Source: Bryobacteraceae bacterium (GTDB lineage Bacteria; Acidobacteriota; Terriglobia; Bryobacterales; Bryobacteraceae). From it: a stretch of 64,000 bases of DNA. Positions within the stretch are counted from its first letter, which is position 1. Each line of letters opens with the position of its first letter. The notes beneath the pieces were generated by a model, which made no database searches, was not told where the DNA came from, and saw only the letters and a program-made list of their open reading frames with translations. A program made the position numbers and the translations under genes. Location: positions 2,626-66,625 of the forward strand of contig JBKBWD010000021.1 of NCBI GenBank assembly GCA_046289265.1, read 5' to 3'. Below, piece after piece: positions 12,202-26,160 of this stretch.

Positions 12202-12286
12202 TTACGACGCAGAGGCGCGGCAGACTCTTTACAGCGCAGCGCGAAACTACATACCGCAGACCTTCATCCAACGAGTTGGAGGAAGC

Positions 12287-12559
12287 ATGCGATCAGCGTC
12301 GAAGCGCGCGATTCCCACCGGCATCCTCGCAGCGATTACTCTGACCGCCGGGGCAGGCGGCATCGAACTCCTCCAGAATCGCGTCCATCCGGAGCTGCCG
12401 TTCTACACAGGCATACTGCATACCTATCGGAATGAGTACAAGGCGGTGGAGACAAATATCGGTTTTTGCGGATGGCTCCTAAACGCTCTCGAAGCGCGAG
12501 AAGCATGCGCGATAGATTACTGTCCACGAAATCACCGGATAACTGTGCTTATGCGGTGA
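12287..12559 (+). CDS. small hypothetical protein (possible signal peptide), orphan in a lower-GC islet
   Basis: ATG preceded by GGAGGAAGC. The N-terminus is hydrophobic (IPTGILAAITLTAGAGG). No recognisable family. Confidence 0.3.
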   Translation: MRSASKRAIPTGILAAITLTAGAGGIELLQNRVHPELPFYTGILHTYRNEYKAVETNIGFCGWLLNALEAREACAIDYCPRNHRITVLMR

Positions 12560-12580
12560 TTGGTCGAGGAGGAAGCGCTT

Positions 12581-12798
12581 TTACTCCAGCTTAAGTCTCT
12601 GGAAATTGTTGAGCAGCGCCACCTGGAGGCCGGAGACCTTGAGGTAGTAGATGCATTGGGCGAGATGCCGGTTATCGAAGCGGTCCTGGCACTTCAATTC
12701 CAGGATGAGCCGACTCCGACTTTGGTCAGATCCGATTCGTGAGCATTCGCGTTCATCCGTGGCCGCTCCTGAACACGTCTCGGCCTGGGAATCAGCAT
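12581..12798 (-). pseudogene. remnant (C-terminal part) of a GxxExxY-family / PD-(D/E)XK-like protein, no start codon
   Basis: Manual minus-strand translation gives ...RIGSDQSRSRLILELKCQDRFDNRHLAQCIYYLKVSGLQVALLNNFQRLKLE* (stop = revcomp of 12581..12583). The ELK ... Q..YL...G...ALL.NF... C-terminal pattern is characteristic of the family. The frame is closed by a TGA just upstream (about 12799..12801) with no Met or GxxExxY motif. Confidence 0.55.
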
Positions 12799-12914
12799 TT
12801 CACGTCGATGCAGGACTCTTTTGGCCACAGATGGACGCGAAAACTCGCGGATTCGTTCGTCCAGTCGTTTCGTGGAAACCACGCTAGTCGCCCCGCTGCT
12901 CCCAGGACCGGCTC

Positions 12915-15900
12915 GTGACACTCACATCGAAGCTCAGCCTGGCGGCCCTTGTCCTGAGCGGTATCCTCCTGCTCATCCTCACTACCGTACTGTTGCTCCA
13001 CACCGAACCAGCCCGGCGCTTCACGCTCGATCGCGTGGAGGACGTACTTCGCCGCCGGGGCATCGACCTGGAAGCCGAACGGCTTGATTACAATCTCTGG
13101 CAGCTCTCCGCCACCCTTACCAATGTCACGATCCGCTCCGAAGCCACACCCGATCTGCCGCCGTTCGCCCGCATCCGCTCAGTCAGCGCCGAGATCAGTC
13201 TTCGCGCTCTGCTGGACGGCGTCATTCGGGTCCGCAATGTTCGCGTTCAGGAGCCTGACATTCATCTGGTGATCGACGAACGCGGGCGCAATAACATTCC
13301 GCGCCCGCCCGAGCGTGAGGAACCGCGCGACTTTCTCATCGAATCGCTCGTCGCCAGCCAGGGCTCGCTGCGCATAGTGGACCGCCGCCAGCCGCTGATC
13401 GTGAGCCTGCCGCAGTGGCAGACCGTGGTGGCAGGCGACCCTGCCACGCTGGCCCACGAAATCCGCTTTCAGACGCAGCAGCGAGGACAAGCGACGCTCG
13501 AGGGGCGGCCTCTGGCGATCGAGCGCGTCGCCGCCAACGTGCGGACGGCACGGAATGTGACCGAGATCCGAAGCGTCACGGTAAACGCAGACAATTTGCG
13601 AATCGGCGTTGCCGGTCAGATCCGCAACGGCGTAGTAAACCTCACCGCCGATGCCGACCTCCGCCTGGGCCCGCTACTGCGTTTCGCCGGTGTGACCCAG
13701 GACGTCCAGGGCGATTTCACCGTGCGCGCCGACATCCGTGGACCCACGGACCACCCACGAATCCTCGCGACGATGCACGGGAGAAACATCCGTGTCGAGG
13801 GACTGGCCGGCATCGATCTTCGTGCCGAAACCGCTTACATCGTCGGGGCGCAGCGCGTCGAGCTGACGCGGTTCCGGATGCAGTCGCCCGCGGGCGCCGC
13901 CGAAGGCCGGGCCGATATTGCTTTGACCGCCCAGGCCGGACGCTCCTTTGTCCAGGCGAATATCGATCGGCTCGACGTGGGCCAGGTCAGCCGGATTCTG
14001 GAGTCGCCGATTCAAATCGCCAGCCGGGCCACCGGGACGGTAAACGCCTGGTTCCAGGGACTCGCCTTCCGCCAGGCAGAAGCCGACATTACGCTGCGAC
14101 TAACCCCGACGATCGAGCGCCCAGCCGAGGACGTCCTTCCCGTCGGCGGGCAGCTCAGCGCGGTGTTTCGCCCGGGACGGCTCGCCATGGATCTGCGGCC
14201 GATCGAAGCTCTCGGGACGCGCGCGGAGGGGCAGGTGCGCTTCGCGCTGCCGGGCTGGGCGATGGACGGCGACGTCCGCGTGGCAATTCCCAGCATCGAC
14301 ACGACCCTCTCGAAAACTGCGGATTTTGTCGGGCGGGAGACGCTGCTCCCTTTTGACGTGGATGGCCCGGCGCGGGCCGAGGCCCGGCTGGAAGGTACAC
14401 TCACATCGCCCCTCATCACGGCGACGCTGTTCACTGAGGACGCGGAGATCGGCGATTTGAGGCCGGTTACAATCGACGCCGGGGTTGTCGTCGATCCGGC
14501 GCAGGTCGCCATCCGCGAATCGACGGTGCGGTGGGCCGACCAGGCGCTTGTGGCCGAAGGAACGATCGGCATTCGCGCTCCGCAGCCGCTGGCGATCAGC
14601 GCGCGCCTGGTGGAGGCTTCCGTGCCTGCGATTCTCGCGGCCGCCGGCCGGCCGGATATTCCAGCCGAGGGCCTCGTGACGGCGGAGGCCGAGGTCGGCG
14701 GCACGCTCGGAGCGCCGGAGGTGGAGTTTACGGCGGTCGGGTGGGACCTTGCCGCATATGGCGAGCCGCTCGGCGCATTTGAGGCCCAAGCGTCTCTGCG
14801 GAATCAGCTTTTCGAACTGTCGCGCTTCCGGCTGGATAAGCCTCCCCCGGGACTGGAGGGCGGCACCCTGGATGCCTACGGGACATACAATCTTGGGACA
14901 GGCGTCTATACGATCGCAGCGGAAGGGACCAACCTGAGAATCGAGCAGTTGGTTCTTCCGGGTGACGTTCCGGTGCGCGGCGTGCTGAACCTGGCGGCGC
15001 AGGGTGAGGGGACGGTCGATGACCCGGTCCTCCGGGGCGGGCTTTCGGTCGCGGACCTTCGTGTGCGGGGCGAAGAGGTCGGTCAGGCCGCGGCACAATT
15101 TTACGTCGCCGACCGCGAAGCGCTGCTTGGGGCCGAGGTTCCGCTCTACAATCTGACGTCGACGGCGCGCATCGGCATCGACGCGCCGTTTCCCGCCCGC
15201 TTCCATGTGCGCTTCGATCAGACCGACATCGAGCGGCTTCCGGTCGAGTTCCCGCGCCCGGTCACTGGCACGATTACGGCGCGCGTTGACGGCAACGCCG
15301 AACTCGCCCGCCCCGAGGACGCCCACATCGCCGCAGTGATTCCCGAACTGGCGATCGTCGTCGACCAGATGCCCGTCCGGGCCGAGGAGCCGATCCTGCT
15401 CCGCTACGCCACCCGCACCCTGTTTGTCGATCAAGCCGAAATCACGGCCGACGATTCGCGCCTGGAGGTCGCCGGCTCGCTTCCCCTGGACACCACGGCA
15501 CCGCCAGGACGGATCGCGATCCGCGGCGACATCAACATGCAGACGATTGTTATCTTTATCCCGGTGAGGCAGCCGCTGACGGGCCGCGGCCGCGTCGAAC
15601 TCGCGGCGGAACTGCGCGGCTATTTGACGGCCATCGAGCCGGAGGCCACGATCCGTCTGGCCGACGGATTCATCAACAGTCCAAACTTCAATCCGATCGT
15701 CGATCTCGAAGTGGCTGCGTTCCTCCGCGACGGACTCTTCGTTCTGGAGCGCGCCTCCTGGTTTTACGCGGCCGGAACCTTCGAGGCAGCCGGCCGGGTT
15801 CCGCTCGCCATGCTCCCGTGGAACCTGCCGCTCGTCGCCCCTCCGCGTCCGGAAACGGCGCAGCTTTCGCTCGTCATCGACCGGCTGGACCTTGGCGCCA

Positions 15901-18900
15901 CCGGCGAACTGCCGGACCCGATCGGAGGTGTTATCTCATTACGGCTCGATGCCCAGGCCCCCGAACATCGCCTGGAAGCCCTTAGAGCGCGGGCTGTCTT
16001 CGACCGCCTCGAGCTTGAGATCGACGACCTCCTGATTGAACAGCGTGAACCCGTGACGCTTGCGGCGGCCAACGGCATCGCCCGTATCGAGCAGTTGAAT
16101 CTCGTCGGCCCCCAGACCCTCATCCAGGCATCCGGAACCGTCGGCCTCGCCGATCCCTATCCTCTGGCGCTGCGCCTGGGCGGCGACCTCGACGCTTCGA
16201 TCCTGGCTCTGTTCGCCGACAATGTCCGCGCCCGCGGAGAGACGCGCGTGGAGGTAGTAGCCGGAGGGACCTGGCGCGGCCCGCAGGTGACCGGGTTCGC
16301 ACAGGTGGCCAACGCTGATATCACGATCACGCCTCCAGGCCTCGCTTTCGAACACATGAATGCGCGGTTCGACCTGGACCGCGACCGCGTCACGATCACG
16401 CAGCTCGAGTCCGACCTCAACGGCGGCCGCTTCCGGGCCGGCGGGACCTTCCGCCTCGGCCCACAGGGGCCGGAGAACATTTTCGTCGACGCCCAGGCCG
16501 AGGACGTTTTCCTGAATTATCCAGTTGGCTTCCGGACTCTCTCGGAAGCGGCCATCTCAGTGCGCTCAAAGGACGCCCTCATCCTGATCGGCGGAGACGT
16601 CCGTGTACTCGAAGGGTTGTATACGGAACCGATACTGGTGGAAACGCAACTGCTGCGGGCCCTGCGCGGCGGCGATGCCATCGACCTCACGATCGAGCGG
16701 CGGCCCTTCCTCGAGCGGATCCGCTACAACGTCAACGTCCAGACCGTCGATCCGGTCGTGATCGACAACAACATCGCCCGTTTAGCGATCGAGGCGGATC
16801 TCCGCGTAGTAGGAACGTATTACCGACCCTCCGTCGTCGGCAACCTGGCCCTGGAAGAAGGCGGCGACATCTTCCTGAACGAACGTCGCTACATCGTGGA
16901 GCGCGGCGTGGTCAACTTCGTCAGCGAGCAGCGCATCCAGCCGTCGCTCGACATCGTCGGTTCGGCGCGCGCCGGAGGCTACGATGTGACAATCCGGGTC
17001 ACAGGCGAGCCGGGCGATATCCGGACGATCCTCAGCTCGGACCCGCCGCTTCCGGAGCCCGATATCATCGCGGTGCTTCTCACCGGCCGAACGCTCGAAG
17101 AGGTGCGCGCGGCCGAAGTGACGGTGGCGCAGGAGCAGGCGTTGTCCCTCCTGGCGGGCAATCTCGGTCTGCTTCTCGCGCAGCAGACCCAGGCGGCCTT
17201 CGGATTCACACGCGTGCGGATCGATCCCTTACTCATCTCGCCCGAGGTCAGTCCGGCGGCTCGCCTTACGGTTTCGCAGGATCTGACGCGCGACCTCAAC
17301 CTGCTCTACTCGATGAACCTGGCCGACAGCGCCGACCAGATCTGGATCCTCGCCTACAACGTCACGCGCCGCTTTCTGACACGCGTGATGCGGCAGCAGG
17401 ACGGCACGACGCGCTTCGAGTTCCGCCACGATATGCGATTCGGCGGTACGCCCCGTCCGCTGCCGCGCCACCCGGTCCGCCCGCGCAACATTGGCGAAGT
17501 AAGAATCTTCGGTGACCCCTTCTTTCCGGAGTCCGAGATTGAACGCCGCCTGGGTTTGCGGCCTGGCGCCCGATACGAATTCTTTCGGGTCCGGCGCAGA
17601 ATGGACCGGCTCGAAGATTTCTACGCGGAACGGGACTATCTGGAGACACGCATCCGCCTCCGCCGTATTGAACAGAACGACACTGTCGATCTCGATTTCA
17701 CCGTCATGGCCGGTCCTCGAGTTCAGTTTGTCTACGAAGGCTGGATCGTTTCGCCCTCGCTTCGCGAGCGGATTCGCGAGATCTGGCGCACCGGTGTATT
17801 CGACATACAGCGGGCCGAAGACGCTGCGCTGGCGATTCGGGAGAACTTAGTAAGAGAAGGGCACGTGTTGGGCACGGTCGAATATGTCATTACGACGCCG
17901 GCGCCGAATTTGAAGCGCGTTCTCTTTGAGATCCGGCCGGGACCGTGGTTTCGCGAGTTCCCGATCGTTTTCGAGGGCGCGCGGGCAATTCCGCCCGAGG
18001 AACTCGAACGCGTCCTTCAGGATGCACAGCGGCGAGTCGAGGTCTTCACCAGGCCGCGCGAGGTCGTAAATTTTCTTCGCAGGTACTACCGGGAACACGG
18101 CTATCTGGACGCAGAGATCGAGCTGCCCCGTTATGCTCCCGATCCTGGAGCCCGCACAGGCCGCGCCGTGATCGTGATCGCCGAGGGGCGGCAGAGCCGG
18201 GTCGGACGCTTGGAGTTCCTTGGAAACGCCGCCTTTACAGACGCGCAACTGCTGGCTGCGATTCCATTGAAAGAGGGGGCGCCATTCCTGCCGGAGCAGC
18301 GTGAACTCTCCTTCACTCAGCTTCAGGACATGTATCTTGCGCAAGGCTACGACCAGGTAGAGATCACCTACCAGACAGAGCGACGGCGTCAGGAGATGTT
18401 GGTCGATCTGGTCTTCTTCATCACCGAGAACCGTCAGGCAGTCGTCCAGGAGGCCGAAATTGCCGGGAATGAAATCACCAGCGATCGCTTCGTGCGTGGA
18501 GAGCTTCCGATGACACAAGGGCAAGCTCTCACGCCGGACGTCCTCAGCCTGACGCGGCGGAACCTGTACCGGACCGGGGCGTTTACCACCGTCGATGTCG
18601 AAACCCGAACGGTTCCGGACCGCATCGGGTTGATGCCGTTCCAGCGTCCCGTCCGGACGATCGTTTCCGTCCGCGAGGTGCAGCCCTACCAGTTACGGTA
18701 CGGCGGCTTCTTCGACACTGAACGCGGTCCGGGCTTAATTTCCGACACCGTGACATACAACACTCTCGGGGGCGGCCGCGCGCTCGGACTGCGCCTCCGC
18801 TATGATTCTCAGTTCCAGGATGCCCGGCTCTACTTCCAGCAGCCGGTGACGCGCGCCCTGCCGGTTCTCACCAACGCGGTCGTCTCCGCCACGCGTCTCC

Positions 18901-19688
18901 GGATCGACGATGTCCTCACCGAGACACTCGGCCTGACCCTCGACCAGGAGACCCGCTTCCGCCGCCACTATCTGGTGACTTACGGCTACAGGCTTCAGAA
19001 CACCCGGACGCGCGACATCGTGACGCCCGATCCTCTCATTGACATGACGATCCGTACCGCCCCGCTGATCGGGACCTTTACGCGCGATACGCGCGACGGC
19101 CTGCTGGATGCCACGCACGGCTCTTTTTTCTCGAACGCGGTGGAACTGGCCGGCACGATGACCGGCTCGCAGCTCAACTTCGGGAGCTATTTCGGGCAGT
19201 ATTTCCGGTATCACCCGCTTGGCCTGGTGCGCCCCGTGCCGTTCGGCCGGGGCCTGGAGCGGCCGCGCCTGATTCTGGCCGGCACTGTGCGGGCGGGCGT
19301 CGGAGGCGGCTTCGCGGGGCAGATCCTGCCGTTCGCGCAGCGGTTCTTCGCCGGAGGCAGCACGTCGGTGCGCGGATTCCGCCAGAACACGCTCGGTCCG
19401 TTGGGGCCGGACGGACAACCGCTGGGAGGCGACGCGGTCTTCATCAGCAACCTGGAACTCCGGTTCCCGATCTGGAGCATCTTCGACGGCGTGACCTTTT
19501 TCGACGCGGGCAATGTCTTCCTGCGCGCGCAGGACTTCAATCCGCTGAACAGCCGGACGACGGTCGGAGCGGGCTTGCGCCTGCGTCTTCCCTTCTTCCT
19601 GATCCGGTTCGACTACGGCCACAAACTCGACCGGCGTCCGGGCGAAACCGCCGGCCGCTTCTATATAAGCATCGGTCAGGCCTTCTGA
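12915..19688 (+). CDS. giant envelope protein: TamB/AsmA-like N-terminal ~1,500 aa fused to a POTRA + Omp85 (TamA/BamA-like) beta-barrel
   Basis: GTG start with AGGA 7 nt upstream and an N-terminal signal-anchor (LSLAALVLSGILLLILTTVLLLH). A long beta-rich region ends in a TamB C-terminal (DUF490-type) signature (ILSSDPPLPEPDIIAVLLTGRT ... LLYSMNLADSADQIWILAYNVTRRFLTRVMRQQDGTTRFEFRHDMRFG). A Pro/Arg linker leads to POTRA-like repeats (IGEVRIFGDPFFPESEIERRL, VGRLEFLGNAAFTDAQLL, VVQEAEIAGNEITSDRFVRGEL). The barrel carries the Omp85 loop-6 motif FFAGGSTSVRGF and a C-terminal aromatic beta-signal (RFYISIGQAF). Confidence 0.8.
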   Translation: MTLTSKLSLAALVLSGILLLILTTVLLLHTEPARRFTLDRVEDVLRRRGIDLEAERLDYNLWQLSATLTNVTIRSEATPDLPPFARIRSVSAEISLRALLDGVIRVRNVRVQEPDIHLVIDERGRNNIPRPPEREEPRDFLIESLVASQGSLRIVDRRQPLIVSLPQWQTVVAGDPATLAHEIRFQTQQRGQATLEGRPLAIERVAANVRTARNVTEIRSVTVNADNLRIGVAGQIRNGVVNLTADADLRLGPLLRFAGVTQDVQGDFTVRADIRGPTDHPRILATMHGRNIRVEGLAGIDLRAETAYIVGAQRVELTRFRMQSPAGAAEGRADIALTAQAGRSFVQANIDRLDVGQVSRILESPIQIASRATGTVNAWFQGLAFRQAEADITLRLTPTIERPAEDVLPVGGQLSAVFRPGRLAMDLRPIEALGTRAEGQVRFALPGWAMDGDVRVAIPSIDTTLSKTADFVGRETLLPFDVDGPARAEARLEGTLTSPLITATLFTEDAEIGDLRPVTIDAGVVVDPAQVAIRESTVRWADQALVAEGTIGIRAPQPLAISARLVEASVPAILAAAGRPDIPAEGLVTAEAEVGGTLGAPEVEFTAVGWDLAAYGEPLGAFEAQASLRNQLFELSRFRLDKPPPGLEGGTLDAYGTYNLGTGVYTIAAEGTNLRIEQLVLPGDVPVRGVLNLAAQGEGTVDDPVLRGGLSVADLRVRGEEVGQAAAQFYVADREALLGAEVPLYNLTSTARIGIDAPFPARFHVRFDQTDIERLPVEFPRPVTGTITARVDGNAELARPEDAHIAAVIPELAIVVDQMPVRAEEPILLRYATRTLFVDQAEITADDSRLEVAGSLPLDTTAPPGRIAIRGDINMQTIVIFIPVRQPLTGRGRVELAAELRGYLTAIEPEATIRLADGFINSPNFNPIVDLEVAAFLRDGLFVLERASWFYAAGTFEAAGRVPLAMLPWNLPLVAPPRPETAQLSLVIDRLDLGATGELPDPIGGVISLRLDAQAPEHRLEALRARAVFDRLELEIDDLLIEQREPVTLAAANGIARIEQLNLVGPQTLIQASGTVGLADPYPLALRLGGDLDASILALFADNVRARGETRVEVVAGGTWRGPQVTGFAQVANADITITPPGLAFEHMNARFDLDRDRVTITQLESDLNGGRFRAGGTFRLGPQGPENIFVDAQAEDVFLNYPVGFRTLSEAAISVRSKDALILIGGDVRVLEGLYTEPILVETQLLRALRGGDAIDLTIERRPFLERIRYNVNVQTVDPVVIDNNIARLAIEADLRVVGTYYRPSVVGNLALEEGGDIFLNERRYIVERGVVNFVSEQRIQPSLDIVGSARAGGYDVTIRVTGEPGDIRTILSSDPPLPEPDIIAVLLTGRTLEEVRAAEVTVAQEQALSLLAGNLGLLLAQQTQAAFGFTRVRIDPLLISPEVSPAARLTVSQDLTRDLNLLYSMNLADSADQIWILAYNVTRRFLTRVMRQQDGTTRFEFRHDMRFGGTPRPLPRHPVRPRNIGEVRIFGDPFFPESEIERRLGLRPGARYEFFRVRRRMDRLEDFYAERDYLETRIRLRRIEQNDTVDLDFTVMAGPRVQFVYEGWIVSPSLRERIREIWRTGVFDIQRAEDAALAIRENLVREGHVLGTVEYVITTPAPNLKRVLFEIRPGPWFREFPIVFEGARAIPPEELERVLQDAQRRVEVFTRPREVVNFLRRYYREHGYLDAEIELPRYAPDPGARTGRAVIVIAEGRQSRVGRLEFLGNAAFTDAQLLAAIPLKEGAPFLPEQRELSFTQLQDMYLAQGYDQVEITYQTERRRQEMLVDLVFFITENRQAVVQEAEIAGNEITSDRFVRGELPMTQGQALTPDVLSLTRRNLYRTGAFTTVDVETRTVPDRIGLMPFQRPVRTIVSVREVQPYQLRYGGFFDTERGPGLISDTVTYNTLGGGRALGLRLRYDSQFQDARLYFQQPVTRALPVLTNAVVSATRLRIDDVLTETLGLTLDQETRFRRHYLVTYGYRLQNTRTRDIVTPDPLIDMTIRTAPLIGTFTRDTRDGLLDATHGSFFSNAVELAGTMTGSQLNFGSYFGQYFRYHPLGLVRPVPFGRGLERPRLILAGTVRAGVGGGFAGQILPFAQRFFAGGSTSVRGFRQNTLGPLGPDGQPLGGDAVFISNLELRFPIWSIFDGVTFFDAGNVFLRAQDFNPLNSRTTVGAGLRLRLPFFLIRFDYGHKLDRRPGETAGRFYISIGQAF

Positions 19689-21136
19689 GCCAGCCGCTTG
19701 CGCACGCGCCGCCAGCCGTTGCCCTTGTCGAGCAGCGCGGACAGGCGCCGCACGGTGGAAGCATGTTTCGCGTCGGCAGCCACGTTCCGGGCGGCAAGCG
19801 GCCCGGACGCATGGTCGTAAAGTTCGCGGGCTGCGATCTCGCCGGTTTCGCGATGGATCCATTCGGTGTATCGCCAACGATCATGACGCAGCGAGTAACC
19901 CATGTGATTGCCCTGACGCGGGTACTGCGAGAAGGCTGCCTCCTTCCACGAACGGCGCGGATTATCGAGCAGAGGAACCATCGACGTGCCCTCGCAGTGC
20001 TCCGGGATTTCCAGGCCGCACAATTCCGCCAGCGTCGGATAGACATCGACGAACTCGACCAACGCCCTGGTCGAGGCGCCGCGCAGCTTCCTCCCCGGCG
20101 CGCGCAGCAACAGAGGCACGTGCGTGTCGATCTCGAAGTTGGTGTGCTTACACCAGGCGCCGTAGTCGTTGAGCTTCCACCCGTGATCGCCCCATAGCAC
20201 CACGATCGTGTTGTCCGCCAGTCCGAGACGATCCAACTCGGCGAGCACACGGCCCACCTGGGCGTCCATGTAGGAGACGCACGCCGCGAAGCCGTGGATC
20301 AGCTCGCGCGCCAGCCGGTCGGAGACCTTGCCGGTGGCCGGGATGCCGGCGTAGTTGCGCAGTTCGCCCCAGTTGGAGCGCGCGATCTCGGGCGAATCGG
20401 CCGGCCAGTCCGGCTGCGTCGCGATCCGGAGTTTCGCAGGATCGTAGAGGTCCCAGTACTTCTTCGGCGCGTTGAACGGGAGGTGCGGCTTGAGAAATCC
20501 CGCGGCAAGGAAGAAGGGGCGGTCTTTCAGCCGACGGAGTTCCTCGATGGCCCTGTCGGCGCTCTGTCCGTCAGGATAGGCGTGGTCGGCGACGTCGGGA
20601 CGTTCGTAAGCGGGCCCGCGGCCCGGCGCCTGTCCGGGCGCAGCCGCTGCCTTGCGCTCCTCGATGATCCTGATCGACTCCGGATCATAGTACGTTGCCC
20701 AGGTGGTCTCGGGGCGCCAGGGTCTGACGGACCATCCGCGCGGATCATCGTCGATGTGGTGATAAATTTTGCCGAGCGAGACGGTCTCGTAGCCGCTGTT
20801 GCGGAAGTGCTGCGGCATCGTGAGCAGGTCAGGCAGAACGGTACGCAGCGGCGTAACCAGATCGTAGACGCGCGTGGTATCGGGCCGCGCGCCGCTCAGC
20901 AGCGAAATCCGCGAGGGCGCGCACACCGCCTGCTGACAATAGGCGGCGTCGAAGCGCATCCCGGTTGCCGCCAGCCGATCGAGATTCGGCGAATGGATCT
21001 CTTGGTGGCCGTATCAGCCGAGGGTGGGCCGCAAATCATCAATCGCGAGGAAGAGGACATTGGGCCGGCGTGCCTGGGCTGCCGCCGTGGAAACGGCGCC
21101 GCAGGCAGCCGCGAGAAAGCTGCGTCGTGTGGTCAT
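19676..21136 (-). CDS. iduronate-2-sulfatase-like Tat-exported sulfatase interrupted by one in-frame TGA (21016..21014): pseudogene, sequencing error or recoded codon
   Basis: The ORF track shows only 19676..20959 (MRFDAAYCQQAVCAPSR..., with the formylglycine motif CAPSR). Reading the same frame upstream gives [65 protein letters not shown]. This comprises a twin-arginine signal, the DD metal-binding motif and a stop exactly where the paralog at 39113 has Cys (LGCYGH). Confidence 0.7.
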
Positions 21137-21193: not shown

Positions 21194-23449
21194 CTATTCC
21201 ACGACAACCTTCGCGAGGCCTGCGTTGCCGGCGCCGTCGAAGACACGGATGACGATGAGGTGCTCGCCGGGCGACAATCGTTCAGCGCGGATGCGGAAGC
21301 GCTCGGATTTCGAATCGGTGACGCCGTCCTCCGCTTCGACGGGTGTCCATGTGCCGGCGTCGACCGAGTACTCGCACCGGCGGAGCGCGCTGGTGGCGTC
21401 GGTGGCCGTGACGTCGAGTTCCAAGGTCGAACCGCTTCGGCGCGGTGAACCCGTCGTCACCACCGGCGGGGTGTTATCGATCAGGACCGGCGCGCTGACC
21501 AGTTCAGCCTCGCGGGCGCTGTCGGCAGGATTCGCCGCGCGGTCGGATGCCACAACGCGGAAGAAGTAGCGGCCGTCGGCGAGCACATCGCTGTCGAGCA
21601 GGTAGGTGTTCTCCGGGAAAGCCTCCTTCAACAGCTTCCATTTCCGCTCGCCCTCGCCGCGGAAGTAGAGCGAAAAGAGCAGCCGGTCGCCGTCGGGGTC
21701 GTCTGCCTGCCAGGAGATATTCATCTGCTCGGTCACCGAGCGGTTCAGCGTCTGGGTGGGCGTGCCGCCGGAGGTGGCTGCCCCGACTTCGCCCGTATCC
21801 GTGACCGTGATCGAATAGGGCGCGACCGAAGCCGAGGAGTTCGAGGCCGGCTTGTTCGCCAGGTTGCTGGCCGCCTGCGAAGAGACCGTGATCGCGCGCA
21901 CGACCGGAGCATTGTTCTGCGGCAGGTAAGCGACGCTCACCCCCTCGAGCACCGGGCTTTGGCCGCCGCCGCCGTCGAAGCTGGCGCGCCACTGGATGTA
22001 GCGGGCATTGGGGCTGGTGATCGAGCTGCCGTCAGGATCGGCGAGCGCCTCGGACCAAGCGCTCCAGGTGCGGTCCGGGCGGGCGGAGTTGCCGCTGCGC
22101 GTTTGAAAGGTCAGCTTGCCACGGCTTCCCGCAGCGGCCCGCCACTGCAGGCGTCCCCAACGGGCGACGCTGCCGGCGTCGTGAACGGGCGATTCATACG
22201 TGCCGGTCGACCCCGCCCCGTCGACGATCCGGATCACCTTCCCCATGTTCACCGTTGTAGCGAGCAGGCCTTTGCTCGTGGGAATGAGGCGTGTTGCCTC
22301 GCCCTCTTCGGTCTGAAGCAGCAGGGTCACCTTGCGGTCCGGTGACAGCCTGTAGATGCGGCCCTGGTCGTCTGTTGAGAATGTGACCTCTCCCTGCGAT
22401 TCCAGCAGATCATAGGCGTTTTCCTCTTTGGAGCTCCAGAGCGTCTCGACCGTATTGTCCGGATGGATTCGATAGACCGCGGACTTCTCTATGCCGGTCA
22501 GGTTCAGTACAGGCGAGAAGGCCGCCAGCGCCTGGGCCTGCACGGCGGCATCGGAGGTTTTGGCCTGCTGATCGCCGCGGGGCTTCAGGTCGAGCCCGGC
22601 CTGCATCTCGTCGGTGACGGTGATCGAGGTCACGGTAGAGGACACGCTCACATTGCCCTGCTGGCCGGAAGGCGCCGCGGCCGCGGCAGCCGTGCGCTTG
22701 GCGACCGACCCGCCGAGCGCCGCCGCATAGATGGAGCCATCGGCGGCCGGAACGATCGCGCGAATCTCCGGCAGGTTCGCGTCATAGAGCACGAACGCCT
22801 TGTCCTTCGCGGTAATTCGGTAGAGGATGCCGTTCGGGTCGGTGCCGGCCAGCACGCGCCCATGGGCATCGATAGCCAGGGCGGTAACGTGCATCTGCCC
22901 GGTCTCATAATAGACTTCGCCCTGACCCGCCGAGGTGATCCGGAAGACCTGGCCCTGATCGCCGGTGCCGGCGTAGAGTGCGCCATCCTGCCCGAACGCC
23001 AGAGCCCAGATGTAGCGTGCACCGGGCGAGAAGTACTCCGTCGCGGCGCCGTTCTGGATGCAGTAGATCTTGCCGCCGGGCGAGGTTGCCGCATAGACGA
23101 CGCCTTTCTTGTCCACGGCAACCGCGAAGATTTCGGGCTCATCGGCGGTCCAGACCAGCGTGCTCTTACCGGAGGAGTCCACCCGATAGAGCCGTCCCCG
23201 ATGGCCCGTGCCCAGGTAGACCGAGCCGTCGGGCGCCTGCGCGGCGGACCAGATCGCCGGCTGTCCGGAGGAGAAAACCGTCTCGGTATCGGGCGCCAGC
23301 ATCAGCCGGCCGTCGCGCGTCAGGGAAACTCCCTGAAAACGGCCGCGCAGAAAGTCCTGGTAGTTGTTCAGCTCCCAGGTGGCCGTGCTGGCCGCCTGCG
23401 CGATCCATGCCAAAAGCGGCAGGGCCGCCAGAAGCAGAAGACGTCTCAT
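21194..23449 (-). CDS. secreted beta-propeller repeat protein with C-terminal Ig-like domains
   Basis: Signal peptide MRRLLLLAALPLLAWIAQA. There are many ~40-aa repeats of the type G.(I/V)Y...(D/G)G.L(Y/F)AGT (GSVYLGTGHRGRLYRV, GVVYAATSPGGKIYCI, GALYAGTGDQGQVFRI, GRVLAGTDPNGILYRI). The C-terminal part is beta-sandwich-like (YFFRVVASDRAAN ... IVIRVFDGAGN). Confidence 0.6.
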   Translation of the reverse strand: MRRLLLLAALPLLAWIAQAASTATWELNNYQDFLRGRFQGVSLTRDGRLMLAPDTETVFSSGQPAIWSAAQAPDGSVYLGTGHRGRLYRVDSSGKSTLVWTADEPEIFAVAVDKKGVVYAATSPGGKIYCIQNGAATEYFSPGARYIWALAFGQDGALYAGTGDQGQVFRITSAGQGEVYYETGQMHVTALAIDAHGRVLAGTDPNGILYRITAKDKAFVLYDANLPEIRAIVPAADGSIYAAALGGSVAKRTAAAAAAPSGQQGNVSVSSTVTSITVTDEMQAGLDLKPRGDQQAKTSDAAVQAQALAAFSPVLNLTGIEKSAVYRIHPDNTVETLWSSKEENAYDLLESQGEVTFSTDDQGRIYRLSPDRKVTLLLQTEEGEATRLIPTSKGLLATTVNMGKVIRIVDGAGSTGTYESPVHDAGSVARWGRLQWRAAAGSRGKLTFQTRSGNSARPDRTWSAWSEALADPDGSSITSPNARYIQWRASFDGGGGQSPVLEGVSVAYLPQNNAPVVRAITVSSQAASNLANKPASNSSASVAPYSITVTDTGEVGAATSGGTPTQTLNRSVTEQMNISWQADDPDGDRLLFSLYFRGEGERKWKLLKEAFPENTYLLDSDVLADGRYFFRVVASDRAANPADSAREAELVSAPVLIDNTPPVVTTGSPRRSGSTLELDVTATDATSALRRCEYSVDAGTWTPVEAEDGVTDSKSERFRIRAERLSPGEHLIVIRVFDGAGNAGLAKVVVE

Positions 23450-25194
23450 TCCTTCACTTCCACCTGGATCGTCCTGGATCCGGTAATTGCCGCGTCGTCC
23501 ACCTGAAACTCCATCTCGCCGAGCTTGGAACTCTGGGACTGCGCGCCGGGCGGCGCCGACGGGCTTCGTGCCAGAATCATGGCCAGGGAAGGCGGCGGCG
23601 CGGCGAGGTCCGCTCCCTGGATGTGAAAGCCGGGCTGCGCTTTCCAGACGCGCACGTAACCGCGGTGGTTGCTCTTGAGGCTGTTGATCAGCGAGATGAG
23701 CTGGGCCGCCGACCTCGGCGCGGCGCTCGCCAACTGGCGATAGTCGGACATGTTGGCCGTCGCTCCATCGGAGACCGTAAAGAACAGCGTGCCGACCGGC
23801 GCGCCGATCGGCACCGTCCAGGAGACCCGGCGGATCGTCTCGTCGCCGTTGTCGGCGACCAGCGCCACCGCGACCTCGACGGTTTCGCCGGGCTTGGCTT
23901 CGCGCCGGGAGGCCCAGACGTCATCGATGCGCCACTGCCGCTTTTCCTCCCAGGCTTCGATCTCCAGATTTACGCCCTTAAGCTTCAGGTCCGGCAAACC
24001 GCTCTGCATCGCGTAAGCCAGCGGAATCGCGGCGGAGAGTGAGACCTGCAATGGCACGTTCGCATCGCCCGCGTAGAGGCTGTTCAATTCGATGGGCTTC
24101 ATGCCACCCTCGAACTCGATTGCGCCGCGTACCGCAAAGCTCGACGTCCCGACTGTCCGCTCAGTGGCGTCGATGGCCGAGTAGAGCGCCATCTGCAGGA
24201 GGATCGGCGAGAGAAAACGGTCATTCACCATCCGCATCGAGTAGCTCGATTGCGGTCCGCCCGACTTCGACGCGACCCGAATGGCAAGCGGAACCAGCGA
24301 GGCACGCCGGCCCAGTTCCCCGGCGACCGCGGCATTGCGGTCCTCGACGATTGTGCCCATCCACTCCTTCGCCGATGAGATCTTGAACGACGTGGATAGG
24401 TTTGGCAGCAGGGTCAGGACCTCGGCGCGCGCGAACGGCAGCTCCGTGCTGCCTATTGAGAGGAACCGGTGGCCGAAGGCGTAGATCCCGCGGCCGTCAA
24501 TATGGGTCACGGTGCCGTCTGCCCCGATCGCCATATCGCCGGACATCAGTTGCACACTGATCATCGAGCCCGGCTGCAGGGAGGCCGGGTTGCCCATGGC
24601 CGGCGGCGGAGTCCCGCCTCCGGAGGCTCCCTGGCGAGGCTCAAGCCCCAGGGCGCGCAGGCGCGGCGCGAAGTGATCCACGGTGCCGCTGGTGAAGCCG
24701 GCAAAGGATAGCGGGGTGGCGATTTCGACGAGATGCGTGTCGCCGAAGGAGGCCGCCCGCTTGGGTAGCGCCGCCGTCAGGTCGTCGCCGGGGACCAGTC
24801 TCGCGATCGCCGCCGCGGGGCGCGAACCGGCTTGCAGCATTTCCTCGATGGGACGAATGCCCGCTATGGGGTCCTTCGAAAAGGAAAAAGCCAAGGCGAC
24901 TGCCCCGGCCAGTTTGCCGTCCAGATAGACCGGACTGCCGCTCATCCCCTGCATTACCCCCGTCTTTTCCAGAGGTCCGCCCGAAAGCCGTGCCAGGATG
25001 ATCGACTGCTTCGGACCCACATTTTCGAGTACGCCGAGCACCTCGACGCCGAATTCCTCGACCCTGTCCCCGGTAAATACGGTCTTTCCAACGCCCTTCA
25101 TGCCGGGCCGGATGTCCTTCAACGGGAAGAACGAACTCTGGGCGCAGAGCACTCCCGCAAAGACCAGTCCGACCGAAATAGGCGCGAGACGCAC
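23446..25194 (-). CDS. secreted peptidase S55 (SpoIVB-like) domain protein
   Basis: Signal peptide (VGLVFAGVLCAQS). The N-terminal block ...GVGKTVFTGDRVEEFGVEVLGVL...GMSGSPVYLDGKLAGAV has a GxSGSP serine-protease motif as in S55 peptidases. The stop overlaps the downstream start as ATGA (23446..23449). Confidence 0.6.
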   Translation of the reverse strand: MRLAPISVGLVFAGVLCAQSSFFPLKDIRPGMKGVGKTVFTGDRVEEFGVEVLGVLENVGPKQSIILARLSGGPLEKTGVMQGMSGSPVYLDGKLAGAVALAFSFSKDPIAGIRPIEEMLQAGSRPAAAIARLVPGDDLTAALPKRAASFGDTHLVEIATPLSFAGFTSGTVDHFAPRLRALGLEPRQGASGGGTPPPAMGNPASLQPGSMISVQLMSGDMAIGADGTVTHIDGRGIYAFGHRFLSIGSTELPFARAEVLTLLPNLSTSFKISSAKEWMGTIVEDRNAAVAGELGRRASLVPLAIRVASKSGGPQSSYSMRMVNDRFLSPILLQMALYSAIDATERTVGTSSFAVRGAIEFEGGMKPIELNSLYAGDANVPLQVSLSAAIPLAYAMQSGLPDLKLKGVNLEIEAWEEKRQWRIDDVWASRREAKPGETVEVAVALVADNGDETIRRVSWTVPIGAPVGTLFFTVSDGATANMSDYRQLASAAPRSAAQLISLINSLKSNHRGYVRVWKAQPGFHIQGADLAAPPPSLAMILARSPSAPPGAQSQSSKLGEMEFQVDDAAITGSRTIQVEVKE

Positions 25195-25272
25195 GATTCT
25201 ATTCTATCCTTCCCAGGGCGGAGCCGCCGTTGTGTGCTCGATTTCCGGTGTGCTTAACTGGTAGAAACATCA

Positions 25273-26157
25273 ATGGCTTCGTCTGCCGAGAGTTACGTTA
25301 AGGACGCTCCTGCGGCTTCCGCGCCTCGCATTCCCTGGGTTGCCATCGCCTGGTTCCTGGGATTGCTGATCCTCTGTTACGCGCCCGTGCTCGATCGCCT
25401 GGTGCATCAATGGAACAACGATGAGGACATGGGACATGGCTTCTTCGTGCCCGCCGTGGCCGCCTACATCGCCTGGCAGCGCAAAGACGAGCTGTTCGCT
25501 CTGTCGCCGAAGCCGAACTCTCTGGGCCTCCTGCTGGTGTTCTGGGGCGCCGCTCAGGTCATCATCGCGACGCTGGGCGCCGAGCTCTTCCTGGCCCGCA
25601 CCGCGTTCATCATCTCGGCAACAGGCGCCATTCTTTGGTTGGGCGGCACAGCGGCGCTTCGCATCCTGACGTTCCCGCTCTTTCTGCTCTGCTTCATGGT
25701 GCCGATCCCGGCCATTCTCTACAACCAGATCACGTTTCCCTTGCAGTTGCTCGCCAGCCAGGTGGCCGAGACGATCCTGAGCGCGCTGGGCATTCCCGTC
25801 TTCCGCGAGGGCAACATGCTGCATCTGCCCAGCCAGACGTTGTCGGTGGTGGAGGCGTGCAGCGGCATCCGGTCGCTGCTTTCGCTTTCCTTTCTCGCCC
25901 TGGTCTACGCCTACTTCTTCGACAACAAGGCCTGGATGCGCTGGGTTCTGCTGGTCGCCACCATTCCGATCGCGATCGTCGCCAACGCGGCGCGTGTCAC
26001 GCTGACCGGCATCGCCAGCGAATATGACAAGGAACTGGCCGAAGGCGTCTTCCACATGGCCGAAGGCTGGATCATCTTCATGGCCGCCCTTACCATTTTG
26101 GTGGCCACCCATCAGGTGATCGACCGGCTTTATCGCCGCTTCCGCAAGCAAAACTGA
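25273..26157 (+). CDS. exosortase family protein (short, ~294 aa form)
   Basis: Polytopic membrane protein with exosortase signatures: GHGFFVP, VVEACSGIRSL (catalytic Cys), IAIVANAARV (Arg) and FHMAEGWIIF (His). Confidence 0.8.
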   Translation: MASSAESYVKDAPAASAPRIPWVAIAWFLGLLILCYAPVLDRLVHQWNNDEDMGHGFFVPAVAAYIAWQRKDELFALSPKPNSLGLLLVFWGAAQVIIATLGAELFLARTAFIISATGAILWLGGTAALRILTFPLFLLCFMVPIPAILYNQITFPLQLLASQVAETILSALGIPVFREGNMLHLPSQTLSVVEACSGIRSLLSLSFLALVYAYFFDNKAWMRWVLLVATIPIAIVANAARVTLTGIASEYDKELAEGVFHMAEGWIIFMAALTILVATHQVIDRLYRRFRKQN

Positions 26158-26160
26158 GGC

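What the first reader, a model, noticed from the sequence alone, without database searches (positions are those of the whole stretch)
12915..19688. One 2,257-aa polypeptide joins a TamB-like inner-membrane-anchored bridge to a POTRA/Omp85 outer-membrane barrel
In the textbook translocation-and-assembly module, TamB (inner-membrane signal-anchor, long beta-rich periplasmic span, DUF490 C-terminus) and TamA (POTRA domains plus Omp85 barrel) are two separate proteins that dock non-covalently. Here a single uninterrupted ORF carries all of these parts in order:
- an N-terminal signal-anchor;
- ~1,500 aa of TamB/AsmA-like sequence ending in a DUF490-like signature (around nt 16900-17450);
- a short Pro/Arg linker (TPRPLPRHPVRPRN, about nt 17450-17490);
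- POTRA-like repeats;
- a barrel with the Omp85 loop-6 motif (FFAGGSTSVRGF) and a terminal aromatic beta-signal.

The fusion point is topologically sensible, because the TamB C-terminus normally contacts TamA POTRA1 in the periplasm. The product would therefore be a covalent trans-envelope bridge. That raises an assembly problem: one chain must keep its N-terminus in the inner membrane while its C-terminus is inserted into the outer membrane. I do not recall such a fusion being characterised.
Basis: partly seen in the sequence, partly recalled or inferred. Interest (0 to 1): 0.8.

Follow-up and report, generated by a model that had tools for sequence, protein, structure and literature searches.

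The report
Single-chain TamB–BamA-like envelope bridge
One 2,257-residue gene really does join an inner-membrane-anchored TamB-type bridge to a BamA-like outer-membrane barrel, and this fusion is a large, conserved and apparently undescribed protein family of Acidobacteriota, not a sequencing accident.

Summary
Window 12915-19688 (+) is one uninterrupted ORF. It has:
- an N-terminal membrane helix;
- about 1,400 residues of beta-rich AsmA/TamB-type sequence ending in a full DUF490 domain;
- a 16-residue Pro/Arg/Gly linker;
- five POTRA domains;
- an Omp85 barrel with the VRGF loop-6 motif and a C-terminal Phe.

The fusion is not an artefact.
- A 99%-identical independent assembly has the same length.
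- 142 clusters at 50% identity match across the junction.
- 80 of 84 GTDB species genomes found with a junction motif read through it in frame. Nearly all are Acidobacteriota (Bryobacterales, Solibacteraceae, Vicinamibacteria).
- Two apparent "split" relatives are frameshifted fusions.
- Genuine split operons exist in the same order (tamB then omp85). In one, a single in-frame stop codon separates the genes.

The Omp85 half is BamA-like, with five POTRAs, but it scores below NCBI's BamA cut-off and is not TamA.

The most likely function is a single-chain TAM-like machine for phospholipid transport and/or outer-membrane protein assembly.

Three things were not tested: whether a separate canonical BamA coexists in the same genome, whether the chain is cleaved, and whether the DUF490 strands dock in cis.

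Ten literature searches found no description of this fusion. I class it as a new variant of a known kind.

The parts
12915..19688 (+). Whole coding sequence: 2257 aa, GTG start, TGA-type stop included. AGGA lies 7 nt upstream of the start.
   Evidence: same length in P0001
12921..12998 (+). N-terminal hydrophobic helix (residues 3-28), the presumed uncleaved inner-membrane signal anchor
   Evidence: AF2 helix 3-28; the hydrophobic run LSLAALVLSGILLLILTTVLLL is read directly; no dedicated TM predictor was run
12936..13424 (+). AsmA/DUF748-type N-terminal region (residues 8-170)
   Evidence: Pfam AsmA 8.6e-12 (above cut-off); DUF748 3.3e-11 (below its cut-off)
13062..17054 (+). Long beta-rich periplasmic span (residues ~50-1380), the presumed beta-taco lipid groove
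   Evidence: AF2: about 80 consecutive strands, pLDDT 90. hhalign to E. coli TamB 652-1249, probability 98.8%. The PDB fold search was uninformative.
16419..17426 (+). TamB/DUF490 domain (residues 1169-1504)
   Evidence: Pfam PF04357, 87.3 bits, profile positions 9-378 of 381; hhalign
17055..17201 (+). Three helices inside DUF490 (residues ~1381-1429), at the position of the amphipathic helices of E. coli TamB
   Evidence: AF2 helices 281-290, 302-314 and 318-329 of model 1, partly low pLDDT; compared with PMC13119328, by inference
17211..17441 (+). Six terminal beta-strands of DUF490 (residues 1433-1509), ending in the beta-signal-like strand FEFRHDMRF (1501-1509, nt 17415-17441)
   Evidence: AF2 strands 333-409 of model 1; motif conserved in 82 homologues; the E. 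coli equivalent is membrane-embedded
17442..17489 (+). Linker GGTPRPLPRHPVRPRN (residues 1510-1525): variable in sequence, constrained in length
   Evidence: pLDDT below 50 at model residues 416-420. Across 83 fused proteins the linker has median 18 aa, 10th-90th percentile 15-21, and is rich in R, G, A and P.
17487..18629 (+). Five POTRA domains, approximately residues 1525-1600, 1601-1677, 1680-1759, 1760-1839 and 1840-1905
   Evidence: AF2 beta-alpha-alpha-beta-beta units; Pfam POTRA in 4 stretches; Foldseek aligns about 817 columns to full-length E. coli BamA, E 7e-41
18642..19685 (+). Omp85 beta-barrel (residues ~1910-2257), with the loop-6 motif FFAGGSTSVRGF (nt 19344-19379) and the C-terminal beta-signal RFYISIGQAF (nt 19656-19685)
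   Evidence: Pfam Omp85, 156 bits; AF2; Foldseek; hhalign to E. coli TamA, probability 99.3%; positions

Best explanation
The gene encodes a single-chain equivalent of a TamB-Omp85 (TAM-like) trans-envelope machine.

**Shown.**
- One reading frame carries, in this order: an inner-membrane anchor helix, a long beta-rich AsmA/TamB-type span, a complete DUF490 domain with six terminal strands and a beta-signal-like last strand, a short flexible linker, five POTRA domains, and a 16-strand-type Omp85 barrel with its own C-terminal beta-signal.
- This architecture is conserved across a large acidobacterial family.

**Inferred mechanism.**
- The chain is exported through Sec and its N-terminal helix stays in the inner membrane.
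- An Omp85 insertase, presumably a separate canonical BamA, folds the C-terminal barrel into the outer membrane.
- The six DUF490 strands then dock in cis at the lateral seam (beta1) of the chain's own barrel, as TamB does with TamA in E. coli. The five POTRA domains would then form a closed loop that begins and ends at that seam.
- The beta-groove carries phospholipids from the inner to the outer membrane and may assist assembly of some outer-membrane proteins.
- The fusion fixes 1:1 stoichiometry and makes the bridge permanent.

**Inferred origin.** The fusion most likely arose from a tightly coupled tamB-then-omp85 operon by loss of the stop codon and of the Omp85 signal peptide. It arose before a duplication that produced two fused subfamilies.
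For: - **Architecture:**
- **Fusion conserved and in frame in independent assemblies:**
- **Alignment with E. coli TamB:** the profile alignment covers TamB residues 652-1249 of 1259 and ends at about our residue 1497. By extrapolation over the unaligned last 10-12 residues, the linker starts about where E. coli TamB ends.
- **Linker:** length is narrowly distributed (15-21 aa in 80% of 83 proteins) while the sequence varies, and there is no conserved cleavage-like motif.
- **No internal signal peptide:** the Omp85 part has no hydrophobic segment in the linker. The Omp85 proteins of the natural split operons begin with a short hydrophobic N-terminus.
- **Split operons in the same gene order:** L087 has TAG directly followed by GTG in the same frame. 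L090 has a 4-nt overlap.
- **Apparent split relatives are frameshifted fusions:**
- **The Omp85 halves form their own group:** they cluster with the operon-encoded 873-aa Omp85s, apart from proteobacterial BamA and TamA, in a crude NJ tree.
- **Published support:** hybrid-barrel docking and lipid-like densities in E. coli TamAB (PMC13119328). A second BamA-like gene next to tamB in Acidobacteria (PMC4494059). A one-chain protein spanning inner and outer membranes (PMC10665443).
Against: - No functional data exist for any family member.
- The PDB fold search of the N-terminal half returned only low-TM hits (ApoB100, LptD), so the groove fold is supported by sequence and secondary structure only.
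- The protein fails the NCBIfam equivalog cut-offs for TamB, TamA and BamA.
- Whether a canonical BamA exists in the same genomes was not established. The attempt landed on a Rhodobacterales BamA.
- An 18-residue linker must reach from the periplasmic end of the last DUF490 strand to the N-terminus of POTRA1, the POTRA furthest from the barrel. That is only possible if the POTRA arm curls back.
Confidence: 0.7

Rival explanations
1. The chain is a precursor. After export, a periplasmic protease cuts the Pro/Arg/Gly linker and releases a conventional TamB-like protein and a conventional Omp85 protein, which then associate non-covalently.
For: - The linker is predicted to be disordered (pLDDT below 50).
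- It is rich in Arg, Pro, Gly and Ala.
- It starts about where E. coli TamB ends (by extrapolation over the last 10-12 residues). Cleavage would therefore regenerate a free beta-signal-like C-terminus...RHDMRF.
Against: - No conserved cleavage motif exists across 83 homologues. Only a Gly-Gly after the last strand is common.
- Linker length is constrained, which fits a tether.
- Fusion only for co-translation would give little advantage over the tightly coupled operons that also exist.
- No experiment bears on this.
Confidence: 0.15
2. The fused protein is itself the organism's main or only BamA. General outer-membrane protein assembly in these bacteria would then be carried out by a BamA covalently tethered to the inner membrane through a TamB bridge.
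For: - The protein has five POTRA domains, as canonical BamA does, and its best NCBIfam hit is the BamA equivalog (252 bits).
- Foldseek aligns the whole of E. coli BamA.
- No other Omp85 gene lies in the 64-kb window.
- Two divergent fused paralogues occur in two MAGs, which leaves room for division of labour.
- TamB-BamA partnerships are proposed in Borrelia (PMC13382580).
Against: - All five fused representatives tested score below the BamA cut-off (175-252 bits against 297).
- There is no rseP-bamA-skp-lpxD synteny at this or two other loci.
- Heinz et al. 2015 report that Acidobacteria have a canonical BamA plus a second BamA-like copy linked to tamB.
- The Omp85 halves group with operon-linked Omp85s, not with canonical BamAs, in a crude NJ tree.
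- A 64-kb window cannot show absence.
Confidence: 0.1
3. The fusion is an assembly, frameshift or missed-stop artefact in this window.
For: Long-read MAGs do contain frameshifted copies of this gene, so errors occur in this gene family. In those cases the errors break the frame rather than create it.
Against: - An independent 99%-identical assembly has the same 2257 aa and no indels.
- 80 GTDB species genomes read through the junction in frame.
- Homology is continuous in a single frame on both sides of the junction.
Confidence: 0.01

Closest known systems
E. coli translocation and assembly module TamA-TamB (PDB 9XDC; PMC13119328; PMC11014939)
   Same: - An inner-membrane-anchored AsmA-like beta-groove protein ending in DUF490, partnered with an Omp85 protein.
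- hhalign probability 98.8% to TamB and 99.3% to TamA.
- Six terminal DUF490 strands with a beta-signal-like last strand.
   Different: - Here the two partners are one polypeptide joined by a 16-aa linker.
- The order is TamB then Omp85; in E. coli the gene order is tamA then tamB.
- There are five POTRA domains rather than three.
- The TamB part is about 250 residues longer.
- Both halves fail the NCBIfam TamA and TamB equivalog cut-offs.
BamA-TamB hybrid system of Borrelia burgdorferi (PMC5582053, PMC11361582, PMC13382580)
   Same: TamB partners with a five-POTRA BamA-type Omp85 rather than with TamA. The gene order is tamB then bamA. Modelling suggests that the TamB terminal strands complete the BamA barrel.
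   Different: In Borrelia these are two separate proteins, and the BamA is the organism's canonical and only BamA. Here the Omp85 half is sub-threshold for BamA and is covalently joined.
Second BamA-like gene linked to tamB in Acidobacteria and Aquificae (Heinz et al. 2015, PMC4494059)
   Same: Same phylum. A BamA-like paralogue is dedicated to TamB and was proposed as the evolutionary source of TamA.
   Different: That paper describes separate genes in the order BamA-TamB and does not mention a fusion. Here the order is TamB-Omp85 and the genes are fused.
TPR / DUF490 / 7-POTRA Omp85 operon bd2492-bd2495 of Bdellovibrio, with Myxococcus and Bacteriovorax counterparts (PMC3983030)
   Same: The gene order is TPR protein, TamB-like, Omp85. 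Many acidobacterial fusion loci also have a small TPR gene directly adjacent. The natural split operons L087 and L090 have the same tamB-then-omp85 order.
   Different: - The genes there are unfused.
- The Omp85 has seven POTRA domains.
- Those TPR proteins lack signal sequences, whereas the acidobacterial ones start with a hydrophobic signal-like N-terminus.
- No such TPR gene lies in this window.
Veillonella parvula long MlaD with C-terminal beta-barrel (PMC10665443)
   Same: One polypeptide with an N-terminal inner-membrane helix and a C-terminal outer-membrane beta-barrel, proposed as a trans-envelope phospholipid bridge. The full-length protein fractionates with both membranes.
   Different: It is an unrelated fold (MCE domain plus an alpha-helical tunnel), it is hexameric, its barrel has ten strands and is not Omp85, and it is proposed to act in retrograde transport.
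Chloroplast TIC236-TOC75 (bioRxiv 10.1101/2021.04.25.441383, listed)
   Same: A TamB homologue anchored in the inner envelope membrane is linked to an Omp85 protein in the outer envelope membrane.
   Different: These are two proteins in a eukaryotic organelle. This comparison rests on the abstract only.

Membership tests
TamB / AsmA-like bridge proteins | N-terminal signal-anchor helix in the inner membrane | tested here: met
   AF2 helix at residues 3-28; a 22-residue hydrophobic run; Pfam AsmA N-terminal match 8-129. Localisation itself is not testable here.
TamB / AsmA-like bridge proteins | Long continuous beta-rich span forming a lipophilic beta-taco groove | tested here: inconclusive
   About 80 consecutive strands at pLDDT 90, and hhalign to E. 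coli TamB 652-1249. However, the PDB fold search gave only low-TM hits (ApoB100, LptD), and groove hydrophobicity could not be examined without coordinates.
TamB / AsmA-like bridge proteins | DUF490 domain (PF04357) above Pfam's gathering score | tested here: met
   87.3 bits against 22.4; profile positions 9-378 of 381
TamB / AsmA-like bridge proteins | DUF490 forms the free C-terminus of the protein, ending in an aromatic beta-signal | tested here: not met
   The last strand FEFRHDMRF (1501-1509) is followed by a linker and 732 more residues
TamB / AsmA-like bridge proteins | NCBIfam TamB equivalog NF047952 at or above 825 bits | tested here: not met
   34.5 bits
BamA (TIGR03303 equivalog) | Five POTRA domains plus an Omp85 barrel with the loop-6 VRGF motif | tested here: met
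   AF2; Foldseek aligns about 817 columns to E. coli BamA, E 7e-41; VRGF at residues 2152-2155
BamA (TIGR03303 equivalog) | Score at or above the curated cut-off of 297.15 bits | tested here: not met
   252.1 bits here; 175-239 bits in four other fused proteins
BamA (TIGR03303 equivalog) | Stand-alone gene in the rseP-bamA-skp-lpxD type neighbourhood | tested here: not met
   The neighbours are pyruvate kinase and a sulfatase. Other loci also lack skp and lpx genes. For contrast, see the canonical locus L089.
TamA (NF047950 equivalog) | Three POTRA domains and a score at or above 625 bits | tested here: not met
   Five POTRA domains; 66.4 bits, over the C-terminal part of the barrel only
TAM-type complex (works like) | TamB terminal strands pair with Omp85 strand beta1 to form a hybrid barrel | not testable with these tools
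   The prediction tool returns no coordinates or contacts. The six terminal strands and the beta-signal-like motif are present. The E. coli reference is.
TAM-type complex (works like) | Phospholipid transport and/or assistance of outer-membrane protein assembly | not testable with these tools
   This requires genetics, lipidomics or biochemistry.

The most novel reading that the evidence does not exclude
The fusion is a permanently closed, self-docked machine. The chain's own DUF490 beta-signal strand occupies the lateral seam of its own Omp85 barrel, and the five POTRA domains form a covalently closed loop. The barrel would then serve as a dedicated lipid exit port and not as a protein insertase.

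The architecture predates an ancient duplication: two fused paralogues occur in some genomes. It may therefore be the main anterograde phospholipid route, or in one paralogue the BamA function itself, across much of Acidobacteriota.

It would also be a natural single-chain construct that fixes the geometry of TamB-Omp85 docking.
Probability: 0.25. Interest if true: 0.75.

Novelty: new variant of a known kind. Interest (0 to 1): 0.58.

Why it matters
TamB-type bridges are currently the leading candidates for moving phospholipids to the bacterial outer membrane. How they dock to Omp85 proteins is being worked out now (PMC13119328).

- **Natural evidence for a stable partnership.** A conserved covalent fusion in hundreds of lineages is natural "Rosetta-stone" evidence that TamB and a BamA-like Omp85 act as a fixed 1:1 unit.
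- **A distance constraint.** The TamB C-terminus and the N-terminus of POTRA1 must lie within reach of about 15-21 residues.
- **A single-chain target.** The fusion offers a ready-made construct for structural work.
- **A biogenesis question.** How is a chain of about 250 kDa anchored in one membrane and folded into the other?
- **Annotation.** These genes are now labelled inconsistently, as "TamB domain-containing" or "YaeT". Frameshifted copies in long-read MAGs are miscalled as separate TamB and Omp85 genes.

Tried and rejected
- **The search for related loci on GTDB genomes.** The single full-length protein found no relative. I then used a hand-made degenerate DNA motif, which worked.
- **Canonical BamA in fusion-bearing genomes.** P0320 has perfect rseP-bamA-skp-lpx synteny, but it proved to be a Rhodobacterales BamA.
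- **PDB searches for solved TamB chains.**
  - Sequence searches with the DUF490 region, alone and as a profile, did not retrieve solved TamB chains.
  - The fold search of the N-terminal half was uninformative.
- **Rfam.** The window gave no hits.
- **Supplements.** None are held for Heinz et al. 2015.
- **Apparent split relatives P0017 and P0287.** I considered these as natural fissions and rejected that. Homology continues colinearly in shifted frames, and P0287 starts inside POTRA1 without a signal peptide.
- **The adjacent TPR protein as BamD.** Only generic TPR hits were found.
Full report
**1. The observation**

Window 12915-19688 (+) is a single ORF of 2257 codons with a GTG start and no internal stop. 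AGGA lies seven bases upstream of the start. The G+C content of the gene (64.9%) equals that of the window (64.8%).

Pfam places the domains as follows:
- AsmA at residues 8-129;
- DUF748 at 8-170, below its own cut-off;
- TamB/DUF490 at 1169-1504 (87.3 bits, nearly the whole profile);
- POTRA in four stretches;
- Omp85 at 1949-2257 (156 bits).

The best NCBIfam match is the BamA equivalog TIGR03303, at 252 bits over residues 1615-2257. That is below its cut-off of 297. The TamA, TamL and TamB equivalogs score far below theirs.

- the linker GGTPRPLPRHPVRPRN at residues 1510-1525 (nt 17442-17489);
- FFAGGSTSVRGF at 2144-2155;
- the C-terminus ...GQAF.

The only positional correction is that DUF490 starts near nt 16419, not 16900.

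**2. Structure prediction**

I ran two AlphaFold2 predictions, each with an alignment of 49 fused homologues.

Residues 1-1150 (pLDDT 90.1) give a helix at 3-28, a second helix, and then about 80 consecutive beta-strands.

Residues 1101-2257 (pLDDT 83.9, pTM 0.64) give, in order:
- more beta-sheet;
- three helices;
- six terminal strands (protein residues 1433-1509);
- a low-confidence linker;
- five beta-alpha-alpha-beta-beta POTRA units;
- a barrel.

Foldseek aligns about 817 columns of the second model to full-length E. coli BamA (E 7e-41) and about 589 columns to TamA.

Profile-profile comparison links the family to E. coli TamB residues 652-1249 of 1259 (probability 98.8%) and to TamA 59-575 of 577 (probability 99.3%). 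The TamB alignment ends at about our residue 1497. By extrapolation over the unaligned last 10-12 residues, the linker begins about where E. coli TamB ends.

The PDB fold search of the N-terminal half returned only low-TM hits (ApoB100 and LptD). It neither supports nor contradicts a beta-taco fold.

**3. Is the fusion real?**

Yes. Five lines of evidence agree.
- P0001, from an independent Logan assembly, differs at 31 residues, has no indels and has the same length.
- About 80 clusters at 90% identity have the same full-length architecture, are 2000-2470 aa long, and share 25-41% identity with the query.
- In an alignment of 82 of them the junction has a constant form: a last DUF490 strand (commonly [YF]EFRH[DE]xxFGG), then a variable linker, then the first POTRA strand.
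- Linker length has a median of 18 residues and a 10th-90th percentile range of 15-21. Its composition is rich in R, G, A and P.
- An exhaustive phmmer search of 1.84 billion representatives with the 226-residue junction found 142 proteins at E<=1e-30. Nearly all of them matched across the whole query. Of the 150 best hits, 96 are at least 1900 aa and the rest are fragments.

A degenerate DNA motif for the last DUF490 strand found 84 loci in GTDB species genomes. In 80 of them a single in-frame tblastn alignment crosses residues 1495-1535. The exceptions are contig ends or long-read MAGs with frame shifts.

**4. Who has it?**

The named sources are Bryobacteraceae/Bryobacterales, Candidatus Solibacter/Solibacteraceae, Vicinamibacterales/Vicinamibacteria, Luteitalea, 'Terriglobia', Candidatus Acidiferrales, Thermoanaerobaculia and many unclassified Acidobacteriota.

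Three loci come from MAGs labelled Bifidobacteriaceae, Acidimicrobiia and Verrucomicrobiia. They carry clear homologues and are probably mis-binned contigs; this is my inference.

The closest named relatives of the window protein are Bryobacteraceae, at about 47% identity over residues 1200-1899. The window is therefore from a fairly divergent acidobacterium. It is ordinary chromosome, with infB, nusA, ftsK and pyk.

**5. Split and fused forms**

Two apparent split relatives are artefacts or pseudogenes.
- At the P0017 locus, homology to the query runs colinearly through three frames.
- At the P0287 locus, a single frameshift falls inside the linker, and the 'Omp85 gene' starts in POTRA1 without a signal peptide.
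- Both come from long contigs of the same ENA project. The multi-frame cases likewise come mostly from MFD long-read MAGs.

Genuine split operons also exist. In L087 and L090 a 1281-1287-aa TamB is followed by an 873-aa Omp85 that begins with a short hydrophobic N-terminus. In L090 the genes overlap by 4 nt. In L087 the TamB stop codon TAG is directly followed by GTG in the same reading frame. One point mutation there would create a fusion. This makes stop-codon loss in a tamB-then-omp85 operon the likely origin.

A crude neighbour-joining tree of the POTRA5-barrel region, without support values, places the fused Omp85 halves and these operon-linked Omp85s together. Proteobacterial BamA and TamA fall outside that group. 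Most fused proteins fall into two sister subclades.

Two MAGs each carry one member of both subclades, at 26-28% identity to each other. This suggests that the fusion predates a duplication, with the caveat that MAG bins can be chimeric.

**6. How it most likely works**

*Established knowledge.* In E. coli, TamB is anchored in the inner membrane. Its beta-taco spans the periplasm and holds lipid-like densities. The last six DUF490 strands are membrane-embedded and form a hybrid barrel with TamA, and the TamB C-terminal beta-signal strand pairs with TamA beta1. A coupling loop binds POTRA1/2 (PMC13119328). In Borrelia a similar TamB-BamA arrangement is modelled (PMC13382580).

*The protein here.* It has every one of these elements in one chain.

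*My inference.* Four steps follow.
- The N-terminal helix stays in the inner membrane.
- The C-terminal barrel is inserted by an Omp85 insertase.
- The six DUF490 strands dock at the seam of the chain's own barrel.
- The groove conducts phospholipids, and possibly assists some outer-membrane proteins.

*A consequence of the fusion.* The last DUF490 strand should end at the periplasmic face next to beta1. A linker of 15-21 residues must then reach the N-terminus of POTRA1, so the five-POTRA arm would have to loop back into a closed ring.

The constrained linker length, together with free sequence variation and the absence of a conserved cleavage motif, favours an intact tether over a processing site. 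This is indirect evidence.

V. parvula MlaD has an inner-membrane helix and a C-terminal outer-membrane barrel in one chain, and the full-length protein fractionates with both membranes (PMC10665443).

**7. What is not settled**

- I could not show whether fusion-bearing genomes also encode a canonical BamA. The window has no other Omp85 or TamB paralogue, but 64 kb cannot show absence. The one search spent on this point landed on an alphaproteobacterial BamA.
- Indirect evidence favours a separate BamA:
  - the sub-threshold TIGR03303 scores in five fused proteins;
  - the lack of skp/lpx synteny;
  - the report of a canonical plus a second BamA in Acidobacteria (PMC4494059).
- Post-translational cleavage and cis docking remain untested.

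**8. Comparison with what is known, and novelty**

The closest systems are:
- E. coli TamAB;
- the Borrelia BamA-TamB hybrid;
- the second BamA-like gene next to tamB in Acidobacteria (Heinz et al. 2015, who describe separate genes in the opposite order and no fusion);
- the unfused TPR-DUF490-Omp85 operon of Bdellovibrio and Myxococcus, which has the same gene order (PMC3983030).

Ten full-text searches found no paper describing a natural TamB-Omp85 fusion. The library lacks most subscription journals, so a mention elsewhere cannot be excluded.

Databases already hold hundreds of these proteins under generic names. I therefore rate it a new variant of a known kind: real, widespread and uncharacterised, made of two partners already known to work together.

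Interest is moderate to high for envelope-biogenesis specialists, mainly for three reasons:
- it is a natural single-chain constraint on TAM geometry;
- it poses a biogenesis puzzle;
- it may be a dominant lipid route in a major soil phylum.

Noticed in passing
L023 vs L054 (JBKPNV01) and L005 vs L027 (JBOGIN01): Two MAGs each carry two divergent fused TamB-Omp85 paralogues, 26-28% identical to each other and both in frame across the junction. Identities to the window protein are bimodal (about 38-47% and about 25-33%), and the NJ tree shows two sister fused subclades. The fusion therefore seems older than a duplication. Bins could be chimeric.
   Followed up: partly
L094 9238-9933, L001 9400-9987, and 20 of the 84 GTDB loci (e.g. 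L055 135-794, L036 1160-1834, L034 6632-6045): A small TPR protein (195-231 aa) lies directly beside the fused gene, either upstream on the same strand or downstream and convergent. It has a signal-like N-terminus and a conserved C-terminal motif, YAHYYAGLA..RPD..HFE.FLKL.P.APE. It gives generic TPR hits only and none to BamD. No copy is in this window. The arrangement recalls the TPR-DUF490-Omp85 operon of Bdellovibrio (PMC3983030).
   Followed up: partly
L087 6137-12622 and L090 4159-10622: These are natural unfused tamB-then-omp85 operons with conserved synteny (acetyl-CoA carboxylase-type genes upstream). In L087 the two genes are in the same frame and are separated only by a TAG directly followed by GTG. 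That is a one-mutation route to a fusion.
   Followed up: yes
L001 10001-16719 and L086 5884-12223: In long-read MAG contigs the fused gene is broken by one or two frameshifts. Gene callers then report a 'TamB' with an out-of-frame tail plus a signal-less 'Omp85' (P0017, P0287). The cause is either sequencing indels or pseudogenes. This is a trap for fused-versus-split surveys.
   Followed up: yes
window 12202-12914: The 713-nt gap between pyruvate kinase and the fused gene has lower G+C (56.5% against 64.8%). It holds a 90-aa ORF (12287-12559) with a GGAGGA ribosome-binding site and a hydrophobic N-terminus. The ORF has no family match. A promoter or regulatory role for this region was not examined.
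   Followed up: partly
window 19676-20959 (-): A sulfatase-family gene converges on the fused gene, and its 3' end overlaps the fused gene's last 13 nt. A second sulfatase lies at 39113-40546, next to a SPASM-domain (radical-SAM maturase-like) gene at 38059-39102.
   Followed up: no
window 23446-28635: An exosortase EpsH gene (25273-26157) is flanked by an S55-like peptidase gene and a DUF5117/DUF4953 Met-zincin gene. This suggests a PEP-CTERM/exosortase sorting system near the locus.
   Followed up: no
L007, L051, L061: Contigs in MAGs labelled Bifidobacteriaceae, Acidimicrobiia and Verrucomicrobiia carry clear in-frame homologues of the acidobacterial fusion, at 31-41% identity. These are probably mis-binned contigs rather than true occurrences outside Acidobacteriota.
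   Followed up: no
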